Source: Chiloscyllium plagiosum
Taxonomy: Eukaryota
Assembly (NCBI RefSeq): GCF_004010195.1
Contig: NC_057718.1
Coordinates: 7,073,579 to 7,122,467 of the forward strand
DNA length: 48,889 nt
Direction: 5' to 3'
Each line of letters begins with the position of its first letter. Position 1 is the stretch's first letter. Positions 30,530 through 43,285 of this stretch are shown here, piece after piece. Made by a program: the position numbers and the translations under genes. A model generated the notes under the pieces. That model was not told where the DNA came from and made no database searches. It saw nothing but the letters and a program-made list of their open reading frames with translations.

Positions 30530-30584
30530 AGAATGGTTCACTGAATGGAATAGTTGCATCTGTTAACACAATTAAGTCATTGTC
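30530..30584 (-). CDS. CD109: CD109-like exon (55 bp, phase 0-1): DNDLIVLTDATIPFSEPF
   Basis: tcacag acceptor and gtaagt donor. 'L.VLTDA' motif precedes the bait region. Confidence 0.82.
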
Positions 30585-30992
30585 CTGTGAATGAAAAGAT
30601 AGACAAAGGTTGCAATTAGTATTTGTGTGGTTTTGAATGTTGTTATTTTCAAGGGCGGGGTTGCTCACGCTGGGGGTGTTGACGAAGTCTTGGGTTTGAA
30701 GACAGTGACCTCGTCCCCGGTGTTGCTTGCATTGTCGGATAACCCTCCATGATCCATACCTTCACCAGGCTGTCTACACCTTCACCACACTCTCACTGGC
30801 CTTGTACAACATCACCCATCCTCCCCACCAACATCAGATCCTCTACGAGACCCCCCCTGCCTAACTTCAGGCTGCACACCCCCACCAACCCCACCTCAAC
30901 CTGTTCACTACTGACTTCCCCCCACCCTCACTGTGTGGAGCCCCCCCCCACCCTCATGCCTTACACCAAGCCCTCCCCACTCCCCTCCTCAC

Positions 30993-34866: not shown

Positions 34867-35019
34867 CATTTCTTCTGTGAGATCATTCCCTCCCTTGAGC
34901 AGTTTGACACTCTTGTCCACCACTAAGATCCCAACAAACGAGTGCTCTTCATTGGTGGACACGCTCAGAGAGACATTATCAGCTGGCTTGACTTGCTCCT
35001 TGCTCCAAGACAATGACAC
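34867..35019 (-). CDS. CD109: CD109-like exon (153 bp, phase 0-0): VSLSWSKEQVKPADNVSLSVSTNEEHSFVGILVVDKSVKLLKGGNDLTEEM
   Basis: tgcag acceptor and gtaagc donor. Conserved 'VDKSV.L....ND' TEP-family motif. Confidence 0.92.
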
Positions 35020-36302: not shown

Positions 36303-36628
36303 GATGGCAAGGCGGCTCAGTGGTTAGCACTGCCGCCTCATAGACCCAGGTTCGATTCCAGCCTTGTGCAACTGTCTGTGTGGAGTTTGCACATTCTCCT
36401 CGCATCTGTGGGGTTTCCTCTGGCTGATCTGGTTTCCTCCCACAATCCAGAGATATGCATGCTAGGTGAATTGGCCATGCTAAATTGCCCTTAATGTTAG
36501 GGGATGTGTAGGTTAGGTGCATTAATCAGGGGTAAATATAGAGTAGGGGGTCTCGGTAGATTACTCTTTGAAGGGTTGGTGTGGACTTGTTGGGCTGAAG
36601 GGTCTGTTTCCACACTCTAGGGATTCTA
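36303..36628 (+). mobile_element. HE1-type V-SINE
   Basis: Head, V-core and tail. Confidence 0.85.
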
Positions 36629-36767
36629 GTTCTAAGATATCTGAAACAGCCAGGTTTGTTCAGATCTGTCCAGCAATGGAGCCACCATTGAGCTGAGGGA
36701 CAATGGCTGCCTTACTGGTGCTGTCCAGATCCAAACAACAAGTTTAAACATCAACAAAAGCTCTGAC

Positions 36768-36944
36768 CTGATTTCTAAAGATGCCTTCCACTTCCAACTC
36801 CAAATCAGAACTAATGAGCTGACCATCTTCTGCAACGTAGTAGACGATGAGGCTTGCTGACGGAGCCCAGGAAGGTTCCGGCGTTAGCTGGATTGTGCTC
36901 AGATTGCTTTTGCCTGTCAGTATCACCTGACCCCGTGATATCAC
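36768..36944 (-). CDS. CD109: CD109-like exon (177 bp, phase 0-0): VISRGQVILTGKSNLSTIQLTPEPSWAPSASLIVYYVAEDGQLISSDLELEVEGIFRNQ
   Basis: cctcag acceptor and gtcaga donor. A2M-family 'SRGQ...W.P...IVYY...DG' segment. Confidence 0.92.
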
Positions 36945-36950
36945 CTGAGG

Positions 36951-38291
36951 GAACATAGAACATAGAACATAGAATATAGAACATTACAGTGCAGTACAGG
37001 CCCTTCGGCTCTCAATGTTGCGCCGATCTGTCATACCAATCTGAAGCCCATCCCACCTACACTATTCCATGTACATCCATATGCTTGTCCAATGACAACT
37101 TAAATGTACTTAAAGTTGGTGAATCTACTACCGTGGCAGGCAAAGCATTCCATACCCTTACTACTCTCTGAATAAAAAAACTACTTCTGACATCTGTCCT
37201 ATATCTATCACCCCTCAATTTAAAGCTATTCCCCCACGTGCTCGCTATCACCATTCTTGGAAAAAGGCTCTCCCTGTCCACCCTATGTAACCCTCTGATT
37301 ATCCTATATGTCTCTAGTAAGTCACCCCTCAACCTTCTTCTCTCTAATGAAAACAGCCTCAAGTCCCTCAGCCTTTCCTCGTAAGACTTTCTCTCCATAC
37401 CAGGCAACATCCTAATAAATCTCCTCTGCACCCTTTCCAAAGCTTCCACATCCTTCTTATAATGCGGTGACCAGAACTGTACACAATACTCCAAGTGCAG
37501 CCGCACCAGAGTTTTGTACAGCTGTAGCATAACCTCATGGTTCCAGAACTCAATCCCTCTATTAATAAAAGCTAAAACACTGTATGCCTTCTTAACATCC
37601 CTGTCAACCTGGGTGGCAACTTTCAAAGATCTGTGTACCTGGACACCGAGATCTCTCTGCTCATTGACACTACCAAGAATCTTACCATTAGCCCAGCATT
37701 TTGCATTCCGGTTACTCTGACCAAAGTGAATCACCTCACACTTGTCCGCATTAAACTCCATTTGCCACCTCTCAGCCCAGCTCTGCAGTTTATCTATGTC
37801 TCTCAGTAACCTAAAACATCCTTCGTCACTATCCACAACTCCACCGACCTTAGTGTTGTCTGCAAATTTACTAACCCACCCTTCTACGCCCTCATCCAGG
37901 TAGTTTATAAAAATGACGAACAGCAGTGGACCCAACACCGACCCTTGCGGTACACCTTGCGGACTCCAGGATGAACATTTCCCATCAACCACCACCCTCT
38001 GTCTTCTTTCAGCAAGCCAATTACTGATCCAAACTGCTATATCTCCCACAATCCGCATTTTGTACAATAGCCTACTGTGGGGAACCTCATTGAACGCCTT
38101 GCTGAAATCCATATACACCACCTCAACCGGTTTACTCTCATCTACCTGTTTGGTCACCTTCTCAAAGAACTCAATAAGGTTTGTGAGGCACGAACTACCC
38201 TTCACAAAACTGTGCTGACTATCCCTAATCAAATGTTTCTTTTCTAGATGATTAGAAATCCTATCTTTTATAACCTTTTCCAACACTTTAC
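36951..38291 (-). mobile_element. Young 5'-truncated CR1 LINE with an uninterrupted 409-aa RT/C-terminal ORF (37057-38286)
   Basis: SCLTNL, YMDFSKAF, GVPQGSVLGP, FADNTK and RLHLEYCVQFW motifs. The (tatgttc)n tail abuts the exon acceptor. Confidence 0.95.
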
Positions 38292-38325
38292 ACTTCTAAC
38301 AAGGGGGAGAAGCACAGGTTAATTA

Positions 38326-38848
38326 GAGTCATAGAGTCATTGAGATGTACAGCACAGAAACAGACCCTTTGGTCCAACTCATCCATGCCGACCAGATATC
38401 CTAAGTGAATCTCATCCCATTTGCCAGTATTCACCCCAAATCCCTCTAAACCCTTCCTATTCATATTCCCATCCAGATGCCTTTTAAATATTGTACTTGT
38501 ACCAGCTTCCACTACTTCCTCTGGCAGCTTATTCCATACACACACCACCCTCTGTGTGAAAAAGTTGCCTCTTTGGTCCCTTTTATACTTTTCCCCTCTC
38601 ATCTTAAACCAATGGCATCTACTTCTGGACTCCCCCACCATGGGAAAAAGTCTTGTCTATTCATCCCATCCATGCCCCTCATGATTTTATTAACCTCTAT
38701 AAGGTCAACCCTCAGCTCCAGGGAAAACAGCCCCAGCCTATTCAACCTCTCCCTATAGCACAAACCCTCCAACAGTGGCAACATCCTTGTAAATCTTTTC
38801 TGAACCCTTTCAAGTTTCACAGTGTCTTTCCTGTCGCAGGGAGACCAC
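38326..38848 (-). mobile_element. CR1/HER1 3' fragment
   Basis: LERVQKRFTRML remnant and ctatgact tail. Confidence 0.88.
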
Positions 38849-39390
38849 ACTCAGTGCACCTTCGGGCTCAGCATTATAAATAGCAATCGCTCAACTATAA
38901 TTCCATCAATTTAAGACTCATAACTGCTTGGCAGTACACAATTTAAACATTGCTAAAGAGAGACATGCAATTGAAATCTTCCATTTGGCACTGATCACGA
39001 CTGACCCGCACCATAAATGATTTAGAATTCAGCACTAAACTGACCATTACTCTGATAAATAAAACTGTAGATACTGCAAACCTGGAATGTAAACAGACCT
39101 TGCTGTAGAAGCTCAGTAGGTCTAGAATCATGCATGGAAAGATAAGGTTTCAATCTCAGTGACCCTTCTTCAGAACAATCACTGGTGCCTTCCAGCATCT
39201 CGGTCTGCAGGGTGAGGGACGCGACGCATTGTTTCTGGGACTCTCACAAGGAGGGCATTTTAGCTTCAGAATTCCACAGCTCAGAGTGTGTGGAGCCAAG
39301 ATAGGAGTAGTGGATGCTAATTGTAAGGGCGAGGGCATAGTACAAGAACAAGTTGTCACGTGGCCTTGGAAAGGAAAAGACATCTGTACA

Positions 39391-39950
39391 TACAGAGACC
39401 CCAGAATCTGTTACAGAGACCCCAGAGTCTGTTACAGAGACCCAGGAGCCTGTTACAGAGACCCCAGGGCCTGTTACAGAGACCCCAGGGTCTGTTCCAG
39501 AGACCTCGGAGTCTGTTATAGAAACCCCAGAGCCTGTTACAGAAACCCCATGGCCTGTTACAGAGACCCCGGAGTCTGTTACAGANNNNNNNNNNNNNNN
39601 NNNNNTACAGAGACCCCAGAGTCTGTTACAGAGACCCAGGAGCTTGTTACAGAGACCCCAGGGCCTGTTACAGAGACCTCGGAGTCTGTTACAGAAACCC
39701 CAGAGCCTGTTACAGAAACCCCATGGCCTGTTACAGAGACCCAGGAGCCTGTTACAGAGACCCCAGGGCCTGTTACAGAGACCCCAGGGCCTGTTACAGA
39801 GACCCCGGAGTCTGTTACAGAAACCCCAGGGCCTGTTACAGAGACCCCGGAGTCTGTTACAGAGACCCCAGAGCCTGTTACAGAGACCCCGGAGCCTGTT
39901 ACAGAGATCCCGGAGTCTGCTACAGAGACCCCAGGGCCTATTACAGAGAC
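39391..39950. repeat. 21-bp minisatellite, left block (unit tgttacagagaccccRgagYc), with a 20-N gap
   Basis: Direct tandem periodicity, reflected in heptapeptide ORFs in all frames. Confidence 0.95.
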
Positions 39951-41892
39951 AATAGACAATAGACAATAGGTGCGGGAGTAGGCCATTCAGCCCTTCGAGC
40001 CTGCACCGCCATTCAATATAATCATGGCTGATCATTCCTAATCAGTATCCTGTTCCTGCCTTATCTCCATAACCCTTGATTCCACTATCTTTGAGAGCTC
40101 TATCCAATCTTTCTTAAATGAATCCAGAGAGTGGGCCTCCACTGCCCTCTGGGGCAGAGCATTCCACACACCCACCACTCTCTGGGTGAAGACGTTTCTC
40201 CTGAGCTCTGTCCTAAACGGTCTACCCAGTATTTTTAAGCTGTGTCCTCTGGTTCGGCACTCACCCATCAGTGGAAATATGTTTCCTACTGCCAGAGTGT
40301 CCAATCCTTTCATAATCTTATATGTCTCAATCAGATGCCCTCTCAGTCTTCGAAACTCAAGGGGATACAAGCCCAGTCGCTTCAGTCTTTCAGTGTAAGG
40401 TAATCCTGCCATTCCAGGAATTGACCTCGTGAATCTACGCTGCACTCCCTCAATAGCCAGAATGTCTTTTCTCAAATTTGGAGACCAGAACTGCACACAC
40501 TACTCCAGGTGTGGTCTCACCAGGATCCTGTACAGTTGCAGAAGCACCTCTTTGCTTCTATACTCAATTCCTCTGGTTATGAAGGCCAGCATGCTATTAG
40601 CCTTCTTCACTACCTGTTGTACCTACATGCTTGCCTTCATTGACTGGTGTACAAGAACACCCAGATCTCTGTACTGCCCCTTTACATAAATTGATTCCAT
40701 TGAGGTAGTAGTCTGCCTTCCTGTTCTTGCCACCAAAGTGGATAACCATACATTTATCCACATTAAACTGCATCTGCCATGCATCTGACCACTCACAGGT
40801 CACCCTGTAATCTCCTAACATCCTCATCACATTTCACCCAGCTTTGTATCATCAGCAAATTTGCTAATGTTATTGCTAATACCATCTTCTATATCATTAA
40901 CATATATTGTAAAAAGCTGTGCTCCCAGCACGGATCCCTGCGGTACCCCACGGGTCACTGTCTGCCATTCCGAAATGGAGCCCTTTATCACTACCCTTTG
41001 TTTCCNNNNNNNNNNNNNNNNNNNNNNNNNNNNNNNNNNNNNNNNNNNNNNNNNNNNNNNNNNNNNNNNNNNNNNNNNNNNNNNNNNNNNNNNNNNNNNN
41101 NNNNNNNNNNNNNNNNNNNNNNNNNNNNNNNNNNNNNNNNNNNNNNNNNNNNNNNNNNNNNNNNNNNNNNNNNNNNNNNNNNNNNNNNNNNNNNNNNNNN
41201 NNNNNNNNNNNNNNNNNNNNNNNNNNNNNNNNNNNNNNNNNNNNNNNNNNNNNNNNNNNNNNNNNNNNNNNNNNNNNNNNNNNNNNNNNNNNNNNNNNNN
41301 NNNNNNNNNNNNNNNNNNNNNNNNNNNNNNNNNNNNNNNNNNNNNNNNNNNNNNNNNNNNNNNNNNNNNNNNNNNNNNNNNNNNNNCTTTCTTCCTTTTT
41401 GGGATGAACTGATCCTGCAACTTCTGCATTATACACAGAAATATCTGCCATTGTTCCTCCACTGTCATCCCTGCTAAGGTATTGCACCATTGAACTTTGG
41501 CCAGCTCCTCCCTCATAGCTCCATAGTTCCCTTTATTCAACAGAAATATTGTCACTTCCGATTGTACCCTCTCCCTCTCAAATTGCAGATTGTAGCTTAT
41601 TGTATTATGGTCACTACTTCCCAATGGCTCCTTCACTTCGAGGTCTCTGACCAATTCTGGTTCGTTACACAATACCAGATCCAGAATTGCCTTCTCCCTG
41701 GTCGGCTCCAGCACCAGCTGCTCTAAGAATCCATCTCTGAGGCACTCCACAAAGTCTCTTTCTTGAGGCCCCATACCATCCTGATTCTCCCAGTCTACCT
41801 GCTGTTAAAATCCCCCATAACAACTGTAGTGACATCTTTGCAACAGGCCAATTTCAGCTCCTGATTTAACTTACATTCGACATCCAGACTAC
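39949..41892 (-). mobile_element. CR1 LINE (APE endonuclease C-terminus to 3' tail) inserted in the minisatellite; N gap at 41006-41386
   Basis: PTREKAILDLVL..GSSDH, GVPQGSVLG and KFADDTK motifs, (ctattgt)3 tail, frameshifts. Confidence 0.92.
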
Positions 41893-42612
41893 TGTTACAG
41901 AGACCCCGGAGCCCATTACAGAGACCCTTGAACCTGTTACAGAAACCCCAGAGCCTGTTACAGAGACCCCGGAGTCTGTTACAGAGACCCCAGAGCCTGT
42001 TACAGAGACCCCAGAGCCTGTTACAGAGACCCCAGAGTCTGTTACAGAGATCCCGGAGCCTGTTACAGAGACCCTGGAGTCTGTTACAGAGACCCCGGAG
42101 TCTGTTACAGAGACCCCAGAGCCTGTTACAGAGACCCCGGGGCCTGTTACAGAGACCCCGGAGCCCGTTACAGAGACCCTTGAACCTGTTACAGAGACCC
42201 CAGGGCCTGTTACAGAGACCCTGGAGTCTGTTACAGAGACCCCAGAGCCTGTTACAGAGACCCTTGAACCTGTTACAGAGACCCCGGAGTCTGTTACAGA
42301 GACCCTTGAACCTGTTACAGAGACCCCGGAGTCTGTTACAGAGATGCCAGAGCTTATTACAGCTACCCCAGAAATGTAACAGTGACCCTGGGGCCTGTTA
42401 CAGAGATCCCAGAACCTGTTACAGAGACCCTAGAGCCTGTTACAGAGACCCCGGGAATGTACCAGTGACCCTGGGGTCTGTTACAGAGACCCCGGAGTCT
42501 GTTACAGAGACCCTGAAGTCTGTTACAGAGACCCTAGGCCCTGTTACAGAGACCCAATAGCCTGTTACAGAGACCCCGGGAATGTAACAGTGACCCTGAG
42601 GCCTGTTGCACC
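41893..42612. repeat. 21-bp minisatellite, right block
   Basis: Same unit as the left block, decaying toward the right end. Confidence 0.95.
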
Positions 42613-42674
42613 AGTAAAATCCTTTTCCTTGCAGTTTTTTATATCGATGTGACAATAAATCTAAATCTACTATG

Positions 42675-43047
42675 TGGAACAAAAACAGAAGTTGCTGGAG
42701 TAACTGAGCAGGTACGGCAGCATCTGTGGAAAAAGAAACACAAAGAATGTTTTGGATTCTTCAGCCTACCCATTATCGCCAGTTCTTTGCCGTCATTATC
42801 ATTTATTCCTCTGTCCTGTCTTACTATCAATAATGCCATTGTCTGTCTGCCTACCGCTTTCATCTCTCTCTCTCTCTCTTTCTCTCTCTGTCTCCACCTA
42901 TCTGCTTCACTCCCATCCCAACCATAATCCAATCTTCACTATAAACACCACGTTTTCATAGTTGCTCTCAGCTCTGATGAAGAGTCACCGGACCCGAAAC
43001 ATTCACTCTGTTTTTCTCTCTCTCCACAGTTGCAGCCAGACCTGCTG
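42675..43047. mobile_element. Family C PLE-derived inverted element with a hammerhead-like motif
   Basis: CUGAUGA-agaguc-accg-gaccc-GAAA-ca-UU at about 42974-43003, with partial inverted arms. Confidence 0.6.
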
Positions 43048-43222
43048 GTTTGGTTATTGATCTGATTCACCCTGCACCAGTTGGCTGTTAACTGAGTGAC
43101 TGTCACCTATTGCTGTTTGGTGTTGCCAGCCTGTGTTGGTAAATGCAGTGCACTGAAACGTACAACACTGTGCTGCATAAATGAACCTTTCCTTTTAAAT
43201 TATAAGTCACGGAATAAGATAC

Positions 43223-43285
43223 CTGATACGTCGTCTCATTCAATAACTCTGAGCTTTCAATAGAGACTTGGAATGGCAGCCCCAC
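43223..43285 (-). CDS. CD109: CD109-like exon (63 bp, phase 0-0): VGLPFQVSIESSELLNETTYQ
   Basis: ctag acceptor and gtatct donor. Resembles CD109 'VGSPFELVVSGNKRLKELSYM'. Confidence 0.8.

What the first reader, a model, noticed from the sequence alone, without database searches (positions are those of the whole stretch)
36945..38325. LINE inserted inside a CD109 3' splice site creates an in-frame cryptic acceptor into a 412-codon RT ORF
Seen: on the minus strand the CR1 tail (tatgttc)n ends 6 nt from the exon (…gttc cctcag|GTG), so the tail now serves as the pyrimidine tract. At the LINE's 5' junction the sequence is ctaattaac-ctgtgcttctccccct-tgttag|AAG TGT AAA GTG TTG GAA, that is a branch-point-like motif, a pyrimidine tract and an AG at 38297-38296. 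Position 38295 is in frame with the stop-free RT ORF ending at 37057, and the upstream exon (43223) ends in phase 0. Inference: the ancestral acceptor was about tgtgcttctccccctcag, and its branch point and tract were pushed 1.35 kb away. Splicing to 38295 would give an N-terminal CD109-RT chimera or an NMD-sensitive poison isoform. The RT reads FADN rather than FADD and has small in-frame deletions, so it is probably catalytically dead.
Basis: partly seen in the sequence, partly recalled or inferred. Interest (0 to 1): 0.72.

Follow-up and report, generated by a model that had tools for sequence, protein, structure and literature searches.

The report
Dead LINE inside CD109 splice acceptor
A broken jumping-gene copy sits six bases in front of a bamboo-shark CD109 exon and has pushed the exon's old splicing signals 1.35 kb upstream. 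That leaves a convincing in-frame decoy splice site, but the only transcripts seen use the normal junction, so this is a rare example of a known kind of event.

Summary
On the minus strand a 5'-truncated CR1-like LINE (38291-36951) ends in a (TATGTTC)n tail 6 nt before a CD109 exon (36944-36768). Its 412-codon stop-free RT frame (38295-37057) starts directly after a TAG. The AG of that TAG (38297-38296) follows a 12-nt pyrimidine run and two yUnAy motifs. The upstream exon ends at 43223 in phase 0, so the frame claim is correct.

New here:
- The AG lies in a junction string found once in the 3.56-Gb genome, so it is not LINE family sequence.
- An older high-copy CR1-like fragment (38821-38324) abuts the tract.
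- By crude measures the decoy beats all 11 real acceptors of the gene in the window. The working acceptor has no consensus branch motif.
- The open frame fits neutral decay (10 synonymous, 36 non-synonymous private changes).

Evidence on use: spliced contigs from two related organisms and the Chiloscyllium plagiosum RefSeq CD109 model all show 43223|36944. No product of the decoy was seen, but contigs cannot exclude a minor isoform. The empty site could not be recovered.

Verdict: a real, rare insertion into a 3' splice site of a known kind. Use of the decoy is unproven.

The parts
43223..43285 (-). Upstream CD109 exon (63 nt, VGLPFQVSIESSELLNETTYQ). It ends in phase 0; the donor is CAG|gtatct.
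36945..43222 (-). Intron of 6278 nt, filled with repeats. It holds two N runs (39586-39605 and 41006-41386).
38324..38821 (-). Older, very high-copy CR1-like 3' fragment in sense orientation. Its 8-nt repeat tail is at 38324-38344.
   Evidence: C-terminal CR1-like frames. (depth about 1e6; loose ends at 38324 and 38821 with unlike flanks)..
38299..38323 (-). Unique spacer, read as the displaced ancestral branch point and pyrimidine tract. It has yUnAy motifs with the A at 38323 and 38319, and a 12-nt pyrimidine run (cttctccccctt).
   Evidence: The ancestry is inferred.
38292..38298 (-). Junction letters (tagaagt) holding the decoy AG at 38297-38296. They are neither LINE family sequence nor repeated in the genome. 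The first codon after the AG starts at 38295.
36951..38291 (-). 5'-truncated CR1-like LINE copy. It aligns to residues 528-942 of a 942-aa ORF2 relative and carries 4.2% private substitutions.
37057..38295 (-). Stop-free frame of 412 codons (partial RT plus C-terminal domain, FADN motif) ending at the LINE's own ORF2 stop.
36951..36984 (-). LINE microsatellite tail, (TATGTTC) x 4.9, now in the pyrimidine-tract position of the working acceptor.
36945..36950 (-). cctcag: the remaining 6 nt of the original acceptor.
36768..36944 (-). Downstream CD109 exon (177 nt, phase 0 at both ends). Spliced contigs cover it exactly.
38146..38158 (-). Two donor-like sites inside the LINE: AAG|GTGACC (exon end 38158) and CAG|GTAGAT (exon end 38146). 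With 38295 they would give in-frame 138- or 150-nt cassettes. Hypothetical only.
   Evidence: 7 of 9 consensus matches each; the real donors of the gene score 5-9

Best explanation
A CR1-like LINE copy, 5'-truncated to 1.34 kb and now catalytically degenerate, inserted in sense orientation into the 3' splice-site region of a constitutive CD109 exon. The insertion point lay between the old branch point and pyrimidine tract and the last 6 nt (cctcag).

The exon is still joined normally (43223|36944). This requires the LINE's 3' UTR and its pyrimidine-rich (TATGTTC)n tail to supply the tract, and probably a non-consensus branch point.

The old branch point and tract now lie 1.35 kb upstream. They sit next to an AG born in the 5' junction of the insertion. 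Together these form a complete, in-frame decoy acceptor.

The decoy is most likely silent or used at a low level. Any product would read 412 LINE codons to a stop 289 nt before the next exon junction, so it should be removed by nonsense-mediated decay.

Shown: the anatomy, the frame, the neutral decay of the LINE and the normal junction in transcripts. Inferred: the ancestry of the tract, the role of the tail and the low use of the decoy.
For: Anatomy and frame.

LINE limits:
- Homology to other copies starts at 38291 (40 hits scored of 4089 candidates; junction compared with 8 readable copies).
- The tail is shared by 5 other copies and found by TRF.
- The junction string occurs once in the genome at up to 2 mismatches.

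The insertion is real, not a misassembly:
- A 376-nt DNA contig of run X1 covers 36605-36980 with 0 differences.
- Runs X1, X2 and X3 hold all 36 sampled words of 36640-36990. One of these may be the assembly's own sample.

Normal splicing:
- The X15 contig (5134 nt, depth 63) lies on 36766-36948 with 0 differences. The X18 contig (1285 nt) lies on the same range with 4 differences.
- That range is the exon plus exactly the 4 nt (tcag) shared with the end of exon 43223 and the 2 nt (gt) shared with the start of exon 35019.
- Models P0001, P0003 and P0004 read TTYQ|VISR.

Neutral decay of the LINE:
- 54 private changes in 1283 columns.
- 46 of them lie in the frame: 10 synonymous and 36 non-synonymous, against 11.6 synonymous expected. 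Codon positions are hit 16/14/16 times.
- P(no stop) = 0.14 in simulation. One of 5 other copies keeps a 402-aa open stretch.

Tract ancestry: 3 of 3430 minus-strand AG sites are as acceptor-like, and this one is at the junction.

NMD rule: established knowledge (a stop more than about 50 nt upstream of a downstream exon junction).
Against: By crude measures the decoy is stronger than the working site, so one would expect it to compete:
- Decoy: pyrimidine fraction 0.85, pyrimidine run 12, yUnAy at -24 and -28, 5 of 7 matches to TACTAAC.
- Working site: pyrimidine fraction 0.80, run 7, no yUnAy, and no 7-mer with 4 or more of 7 matches between -15 and -70.

The transcript evidence is weaker than it looks:
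- It comes from coded organisms C and B, whose LINE status is unknown.
- Both runs are only guessed to be RNA.
- I did not see the letters beyond the exon in those contigs.
- RefSeq-type models may rest partly on homology.
- Contigs drop rare isoforms.

No empty site was obtained, so the tract could be unrelated flank of the older CR1-like element.
Confidence: 0.62

Rival explanations
1. The decoy acceptor at 38295 is used appreciably. It would give an N-terminal CD109-RT chimera, or a poison isoform removed by NMD that lowers CD109 output.
For: The decoy has the best crude acceptor measures of the 12 sites compared and a 5 of 7 branch match at -24. It is transcribed before the working site. 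The working site lacks a consensus branch motif. The frame is open for 412 codons.
Against: The only spliced contigs seen, and three gene models, carry the normal junction. Without an internal donor the resulting exon would be 1528 nt long (38295-36768), which is unfavourable for exon definition in vertebrates (established knowledge). The substitution pattern in the frame is neutral, so nothing has kept it as coding sequence. Among the best 120 of 3486 long RT relatives, none carries an alpha-2-macroglobulin-type domain.
Confidence: 0.2
2. The acceptor-like tract is a chance resemblance. On this view it is ordinary flank of the older CR1-like element, never adjacent to the exon, and the original tract was lost or replaced when the LINE inserted.
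For: No empty site was recovered. The tract abuts the older element's tail at 38324. The thresholds were chosen after seeing the site.
Against: Such a motif is rare (3 of 3430 AG sites on the minus strand, 3 of 3368 on the plus strand). It sits within a few nt of the LINE's 5' end. Joining the two flanks gives a normal acceptor with a branch motif about 25-30 nt upstream. The tract is not part of the older repeat: copies of that repeat diverge at 38324.
Confidence: 0.15
3. Assembly artefact. A LINE copy was wrongly placed next to the exon.
For: The LINE family is very abundant (4089 first-look candidates). The intron holds N runs.
Against: An independent-looking DNA contig in X1 bridges the exon and tail with 0 differences. 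All 36 sampled words are held by runs of three samples. The exon region is single copy and the 5' junction string is unique.
Confidence: 0.02

Closest known systems
Transposable-element insertions in the near-exon 'underrepresentation zone', less than 20 bp from a splice acceptor (Zhang, Romanish and Mager 2011, PMC3088655; passages read)
   Same: It is a sense-oriented LINE within 20 bp of a splice acceptor. The paper finds this class strongly depleted among fixed elements and enriched among disease-causing insertions. Only 2 of 7 full-length L1s within 20 bp of exons lay near acceptors, and 4 of 5 mutagenic L1s were sense-oriented and near acceptors.
   Different: Here the insertion is tolerated: the exon is still in the mRNA models, and the copy has about 4% private divergence. 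The element is a shark CR1-like LINE with a microsatellite tail, not an L1 with poly(A). The paper covers human and mouse only.
TE exonization that creates an alternative 3' splice site (Sela et al. 2007, PMC2394776; Sela, Kim and Ast 2010, PMC2911107; passages read)
   Same: A TE insertion yields a new acceptor-like site upstream of an existing exon. CR1 LINEs are the main source of exonizations in chicken.
   Different: In the described cases the tract and AG usually come from the TE itself, and transcripts prove their use. Here the tract and branch motif appear to be the host's own displaced signals, the AG comes from the junction, and no transcript shows use.
Antisense Alu poly-U tracts acting as pyrimidine tracts and kept silent by hnRNP C (Zarnack et al. 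2013, PMC3629564; search listing and abstract only); repression of splicing around LINEs by MATR3/PTBP1 (Attig et al. 2018, PMC6108849; search listing and abstract only)
   Same: A TE-borne pyrimidine-rich run sits at a 3' splice site. Decoy sites near repeats are commonly repressed by RNA-binding proteins. The CU-rich decoy tract could be a PTB-type target (my inference, untested).
   Different: No binding data exist for this locus. The functional tract here is a sense-strand CR1 microsatellite tail, not an Alu poly-U.

Membership tests
CD109 (alpha-2-macroglobulin family) gene | Exons encode a protein collinear with annotated CD109 of related species. | tested here: met
   tblastn gives 11 HSPs collinear with P0001. 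Six HSPs are 100% identical to P0003, the C. plagiosum CD109 model. Precomputed Pfam A2M-family domains are listed on P0001.
CR1-clade LINE (non-LTR retrotransposon) | Reverse-transcriptase domain. | tested here: met
   Pfam RVT_1, E 2.4e-24, 86.6 bits against a cut-off of 29.6.
CR1-clade LINE (non-LTR retrotransposon) | Full-length members carry an APE-type endonuclease N-terminal to the RT. | tested here: met
   The relative P0027 (942 aa, 78% identity) carries PF03372/PF14529 plus PF00078. This copy aligns to its residues 528-942, so it lacks the endonuclease through 5' truncation.
CR1-clade LINE (non-LTR retrotransposon) | 3' end is a short microsatellite repeat rather than poly(A). | tested here: met
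   A 7-nt unit x 4.9 at 36951-36984. The same unit is at the ends of 5 other copies. That this is a CR1 trait is recalled knowledge.
CR1-clade LINE (non-LTR retrotransposon) | Phylogenetic placement of the RT within the CR1 clade. | tested here: inconclusive
   No tree was built. The best named relatives are bird RT proteins at about 50% identity. Chicken LINEs are CR1 (PMC2911107) and CR1 dominates shark repeats (PMC8455134). The C-terminal FFxQRVVxxWNxLP motif as a CR1 mark is recalled.
Vertebrate 3' splice site (branch point, pyrimidine tract, YAG) | yUnAy branch motif 18-40 nt upstream, a pyrimidine tract, YAG, and no intervening AG. | tested here: met
   Decoy site 38295: CTAAT at -28, TTAAC at -24, pyrimidine fraction 0.85, pyrimidine run 12, TAG, 69 AG-free nt. 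These are crude measures; no MaxEnt-type model was available.
TE-created alternative 3' splice site / exonization | Transcripts that use the new site. | tested here: inconclusive
   Only the normal junction was visible, in contigs of runs X15 and X18 and in protein models. The output listed 15 joints and left 685 unshown. Contigs cannot show absence.
NMD-coupled poison isoform | A premature stop more than about 50 nt upstream of a downstream exon-exon junction in the alternative isoform. | tested here: met
   The stop at 37059-37057 lies 289 nt upstream of the exon end at 36768. This holds only if the isoform exists.
NMD-coupled poison isoform | Regulated or conserved use. | not testable with these tools
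   It needs RNA data with NMD inhibition and orthologous introns.

The most novel reading that the evidence does not exclude
The fixed LINE has turned a constitutive acceptor into a competing pair. In some tissues the strong displaced acceptor at 38295 would be chosen. One outcome is a poison 3' splice site that tunes CD109 output through NMD. The other, using the LINE-internal donors at 38158 or 38146, is an in-frame cassette of 46 or 50 LINE-derived residues inserted between two macroglobulin-type domains of CD109.
Probability: 0.12. Interest if true: 0.55.

Novelty: new member of a known kind. Interest (0 to 1): 0.3.

Why it matters
Fixed sense-oriented LINEs within a few bases of a splice acceptor are rare, because they usually break the gene (PMC3088655).

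This locus is a natural experiment. A conserved exon has lost its own branch point and pyrimidine tract to a point 1.35 kb away, yet it still appears in the mRNA with a LINE microsatellite tail in their place. A textbook-quality decoy acceptor stands upstream.

It could show how much of a vertebrate 3' splice site can be replaced by repeat sequence, and how decoys next to LINEs are kept silent in CR1-rich shark genomes. If the decoy is never used and the tail simply works, it is a tidy but ordinary example.

Tried and rejected
- **Whole-genome file.** It was not available. I used searches of the window's own genome instead.
- **RNA runs of the window's own organism.** No RNA holder was listed. 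Organism A had only two single-cell poly(A) raw-read runs and one contig run holding next to none of the words. I did not lay them. This says nothing about expression.
- **Decoy junction in contigs.** No 43223|38295 product or loose end at 38295 was listed. The upstream exon was outside the laid stretch. 685 joints, 3306 loose ends and over 256,000 pieces were not shown, because contigs from other LINE copies swamped the tables. So this is not evidence of absence.
- **Choice of laid stretch.** I laid only 36400-39250, not the whole intron. I wanted to avoid the 21-nt tandem arrays, since the tool turns away long repeats.
- **Empty site in related organism B (run X12).** It was not resolved. 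Only a short piece covers part of the exon. One 506-nt contig covers 38794-39250 with 28 differences. No contig across either LINE junction was listed.
- **A haplotig with the empty allele.** None was found; the exon region is single copy.
- **Earlier notes of this scan.** Nothing came up by place, by relatives or by words.
- **Selection on the RT frame.** Rejected, because the substitution pattern is neutral.
- **Recursive splicing through the decoy.** Rejected. Joining CAG to AAGTGT does not regenerate a GT donor (sequence).
- **Use of the distant old branch point for the working site.** Rejected, because the LINE between them contains many AGs (sequence).
- **Exact pre-insertion sequence.** I could not choose between them.
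- **X1 joint 36610 to 36951.** Its depth of 150 against about 11 for unique sequence marks it as another repeat locus, not this one.
- **Pfam hits on the translated minisatellite.** The Acb2_Tad1_hairpin and DUF7162 hits are below cut-off and spurious.

Full report
**Gene and exons**

The window carries part of CD109 on the minus strand. The 60-residue peptide of the exon next to the finding is 95% identical to Hemiscyllium ocellatum CD109 (P0001) and 80% identical to Stegostoma tigrinum CD109. tblastn places 11 collinear HSPs in the window.

The 90% cluster of P0001 also holds the Chiloscyllium plagiosum and C. punctatum models. The window's exons are 100% identical to the C. plagiosum model P0003 in 6 of 11 HSPs. 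The remaining HSPs run past exon ends.

A small splice-aware search of GT/AG pairs against P0001 gave these limits:
- Upstream exon 43285-43223 (63 nt), ending TATCAG|gtatct in phase 0.
- Downstream exon 36944-36768 (177 nt), with acceptor cctcag|GTGATA.
- An intron of 6278 nt between them.

**The observation**

- A 7-nt repeat, (TATGTTC) x 4.9 at 36951-36984, ends 6 nt before the exon.
- At 38325-38290 the minus strand reads ctaattaacctgtgcttctcccccttgttag|AAGTGT.
- The stop-to-stop frame 38295-37057 is 412 codons long and matches Pfam RVT_1 (E 2.4e-24).
- The frame begins right after a TAG, and the AG of that TAG is the proposed acceptor. Any phase-0 exon therefore joins it in frame, so the coincidence amounts to about one in three.

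**What the LINE is**

The frame aligns at 78% identity to residues 528-942 of a 942-aa endonuclease-plus-RT protein (P0027) and ends at that protein's natural stop. The best named relatives are bird RT proteins at about 50% identity. This fits the CR1 clade, but I built no tree.

Other copies in the 3.56-Gb genome match from 38291 onward at 94-96% over the first 142 nt. Over the whole 1.33 kb they match at 89-93%.

Compared with five other copies, this copy shows:
- 54 private substitutions in 1283 comparable columns (4.2%).
- Two deletions, of 9 and 6 nt.
- FADN where 4 of 5 copies read FADD and 1 of 5 also reads FADN.

The 46 private changes inside the frame split into 10 synonymous and 36 non-synonymous. 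Random changes would give 11.6 synonymous. The three codon positions are hit 16, 14 and 16 times. In simulation, 14% of runs with the same number of random changes produced no stop. One of the five other copies keeps a 402-aa open stretch. The open frame therefore needs no selection to explain it.

**The two junctions**

The family tail is the same 7-nt repeat in all five compared copies, and they break off at different points of the unit. The 3' end of this copy is therefore 36951, give or take 1-2 nt.

At the 5' end, full-length copies read ...cttacttcaGTTGTTGGTAAAGTGTTGG, whereas this copy reads ...cccccttGTTAGAAGTGTAAAGTGTTGG. The 29-nt junction string occurs once in the genome at up to 2 mismatches. 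The AG at 38297-38296 is thus neither family sequence nor a subfamily variant. It arose at, or belongs to, this one junction.

An older, very abundant CR1-like 3' fragment lies directly upstream of the tract, in the same orientation.
- Its frames carry the CR1-type C-terminal region.
- Its 8-nt repeat tail is at 38324-38344.
- In DNA runs, contigs of many other copies diverge from the window at 38324 and 38821.

The unique spacer 38323-38292 is therefore not part of either repeat.

**Is the spacer the old splice signal?**

I had no splice-site model, so I used crude measures on the 11 real acceptors of the gene in the window plus the decoy.

| Measure | Decoy (38295) | Working site (36944) |
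|---|---|---|
| Pyrimidine fraction | 0.85 (highest of 12) | 0.80 |
| Longest pyrimidine run | 12 (joint highest) | 7 |
| yUnAy motifs | at -28 and -24 | none |
| Match to TACTAAC | 5 of 7 | no 7-mer with 4 or more of 7 between -15 and -70 |
| AG-free nt upstream | 69 | 56 |

The working site is the only one of the 11 acceptors checked that lacks such a TACTAAC match.

Across the window, only 3 of 3430 AG sites on the minus strand and 3 of 3368 on the plus strand reach the decoy's level. Those thresholds were chosen after seeing the site. One such site lying within a few bases of the LINE's 5' end is best explained as the exon's own branch point and tract, separated from cctcag by the insertion. 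This remains an inference.

Two reconstructions of the pre-insertion sequence fit: a ccct duplication, or tgtt microhomology with the tail. I could not decide between them.

**Is the insertion real?**

Yes.
- A 376-nt DNA contig of run X1 covers 36605-36980 without a difference.
- Runs of three samples hold all 36 sampled words of 36640-36990. One of these may be the assembly's own sample.
- The exon region is single copy.

**Which junction is used?**

In run X15 (organism C, guessed RNA) a 5134-nt contig at depth 63 lies on 36766-36948 with no difference. In run X18 (organism B, guessed RNA) a 1285-nt contig lies on the same range with 4 differences.

That range is the exon (36768-36944) plus exactly the 4 nt (tcag) that the intron end shares with the end of exon 43223, and the 2 nt (gt) that the intron start shares with the next exon at 35019. 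This is what normal joins on both sides predict. It is not what LINE inclusion predicts, nor skipping of the 63-nt exon, whose predecessor ends CAAG.

Models P0001, P0003 and P0004 read TTYQ|VISR. An older C. punctatum model, P0005, starts 18 nt later at an internal AG (36927-36926).

Limits on this evidence:
- I did not see the contig letters beyond the exon.
- I do not know whether organisms B and C carry the LINE.
- Contigs drop rare isoforms.
- The tables were swamped by other LINE copies.

**Consequences if the decoy were used**

Without an internal donor, the exon would run from 38295 to 36768 (1528 nt). It would stop at 37059-37057, which is 289 nt before the next junction, so the isoform would be an NMD target by the usual rule.

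Two donor-like sites inside the LINE, ending at 38158 and 38146, each match 7 of 9 consensus positions. The real donors of the gene match 5-9. Either would give an in-frame cassette of 138 or 150 nt. No transcript supports any of these.

**Comparison with what is known**

- TEs within 20 bp of splice acceptors, especially sense LINEs, are strongly depleted among fixed elements and enriched among disease insertions in human and mouse (PMC3088655, passages read).
- TE-created alternative 3' splice sites are a recognised class, and CR1 is the main exonizing element in chicken (PMC2911107, passages read; PMC2394776, methods passage read).
- CR1 LINEs make up about a fifth of a shark genome and are concentrated in introns (PMC8455134, passages read).
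- My four literature searches that ran were not aimed at proving absence. I make no claim that this architecture is unpublished.

**Verdict**

The structural reading is well supported: a LINE inside the 3' splice site, with its tail in the tract position and a displaced in-frame decoy. Functional use of the decoy is unproven, and the transcripts available do not show it.

It is a new member of a known kind. It is notable for how close to the exon the insertion was tolerated, and for the contrast between a weak-looking working site and a strong-looking decoy.

Noticed in passing
window 36926-36944 (minus): An internal AG (36927-36926, ggggtcag|GTGATACTG) lies 18 nt into the exon. An older C. 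punctatum CD109 model (P0005) uses it as the acceptor and so lacks VISRSQ. It could be an in-frame alternative acceptor, which would matter if the LINE weakened the main one.
   Followed up: partly
window 38324-38821 (minus): An older CR1-like 3' fragment with an 8-nt repeat tail. Its summed contig depth is higher than that of the younger LINE in all four runs. So the last 50 nt or so before this exon were hit twice by sense CR1-type insertions.
   Followed up: partly
window 36574-36610 and 38357-38393: A 37-nt inverted repeat, 76% complementary, formed by CR1-like 3' UTR pieces in opposite orientation on either side of the exon. The downstream block 36400-36616 is itself a high-copy repeat. 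Pairing in the pre-mRNA is conceivable but was not tested.
   Followed up: no
window 39265-40073 and 41770-42400: Two arrays of a 21-nt tandem repeat flank a LINE piece that has a weak endonuclease match (Exo_endo_phos_2, E 0.0014) and a 381-N run (41006-41386). Translating the arrays gives long open frames and spurious sub-threshold Pfam hits.
   Followed up: no
window 38146-38158 (minus): Two donor-like sites in the LINE (AAG|GTGACC and CAG|GTAGAT). With the decoy acceptor they would give in-frame 138- or 150-nt exons.
   Followed up: partly
window 30531-30965 (minus): The exon or exons for residues of about 659-677 of P0001 were not cleanly placed. My splice search gave a poor join at 30965 to 24951. 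tblastn puts a short exon near 30599-30531.
   Followed up: no
P0003 versus P0001 and P0004: The C. plagiosum CD109 model is 1429 aa, against 1471-1474 aa in H. ocellatum and C. punctatum. At this exon its residue numbering is 42 and 45 lower than theirs, so the missing residues lie upstream of it, before the part of the gene held in this window.
   Followed up: no
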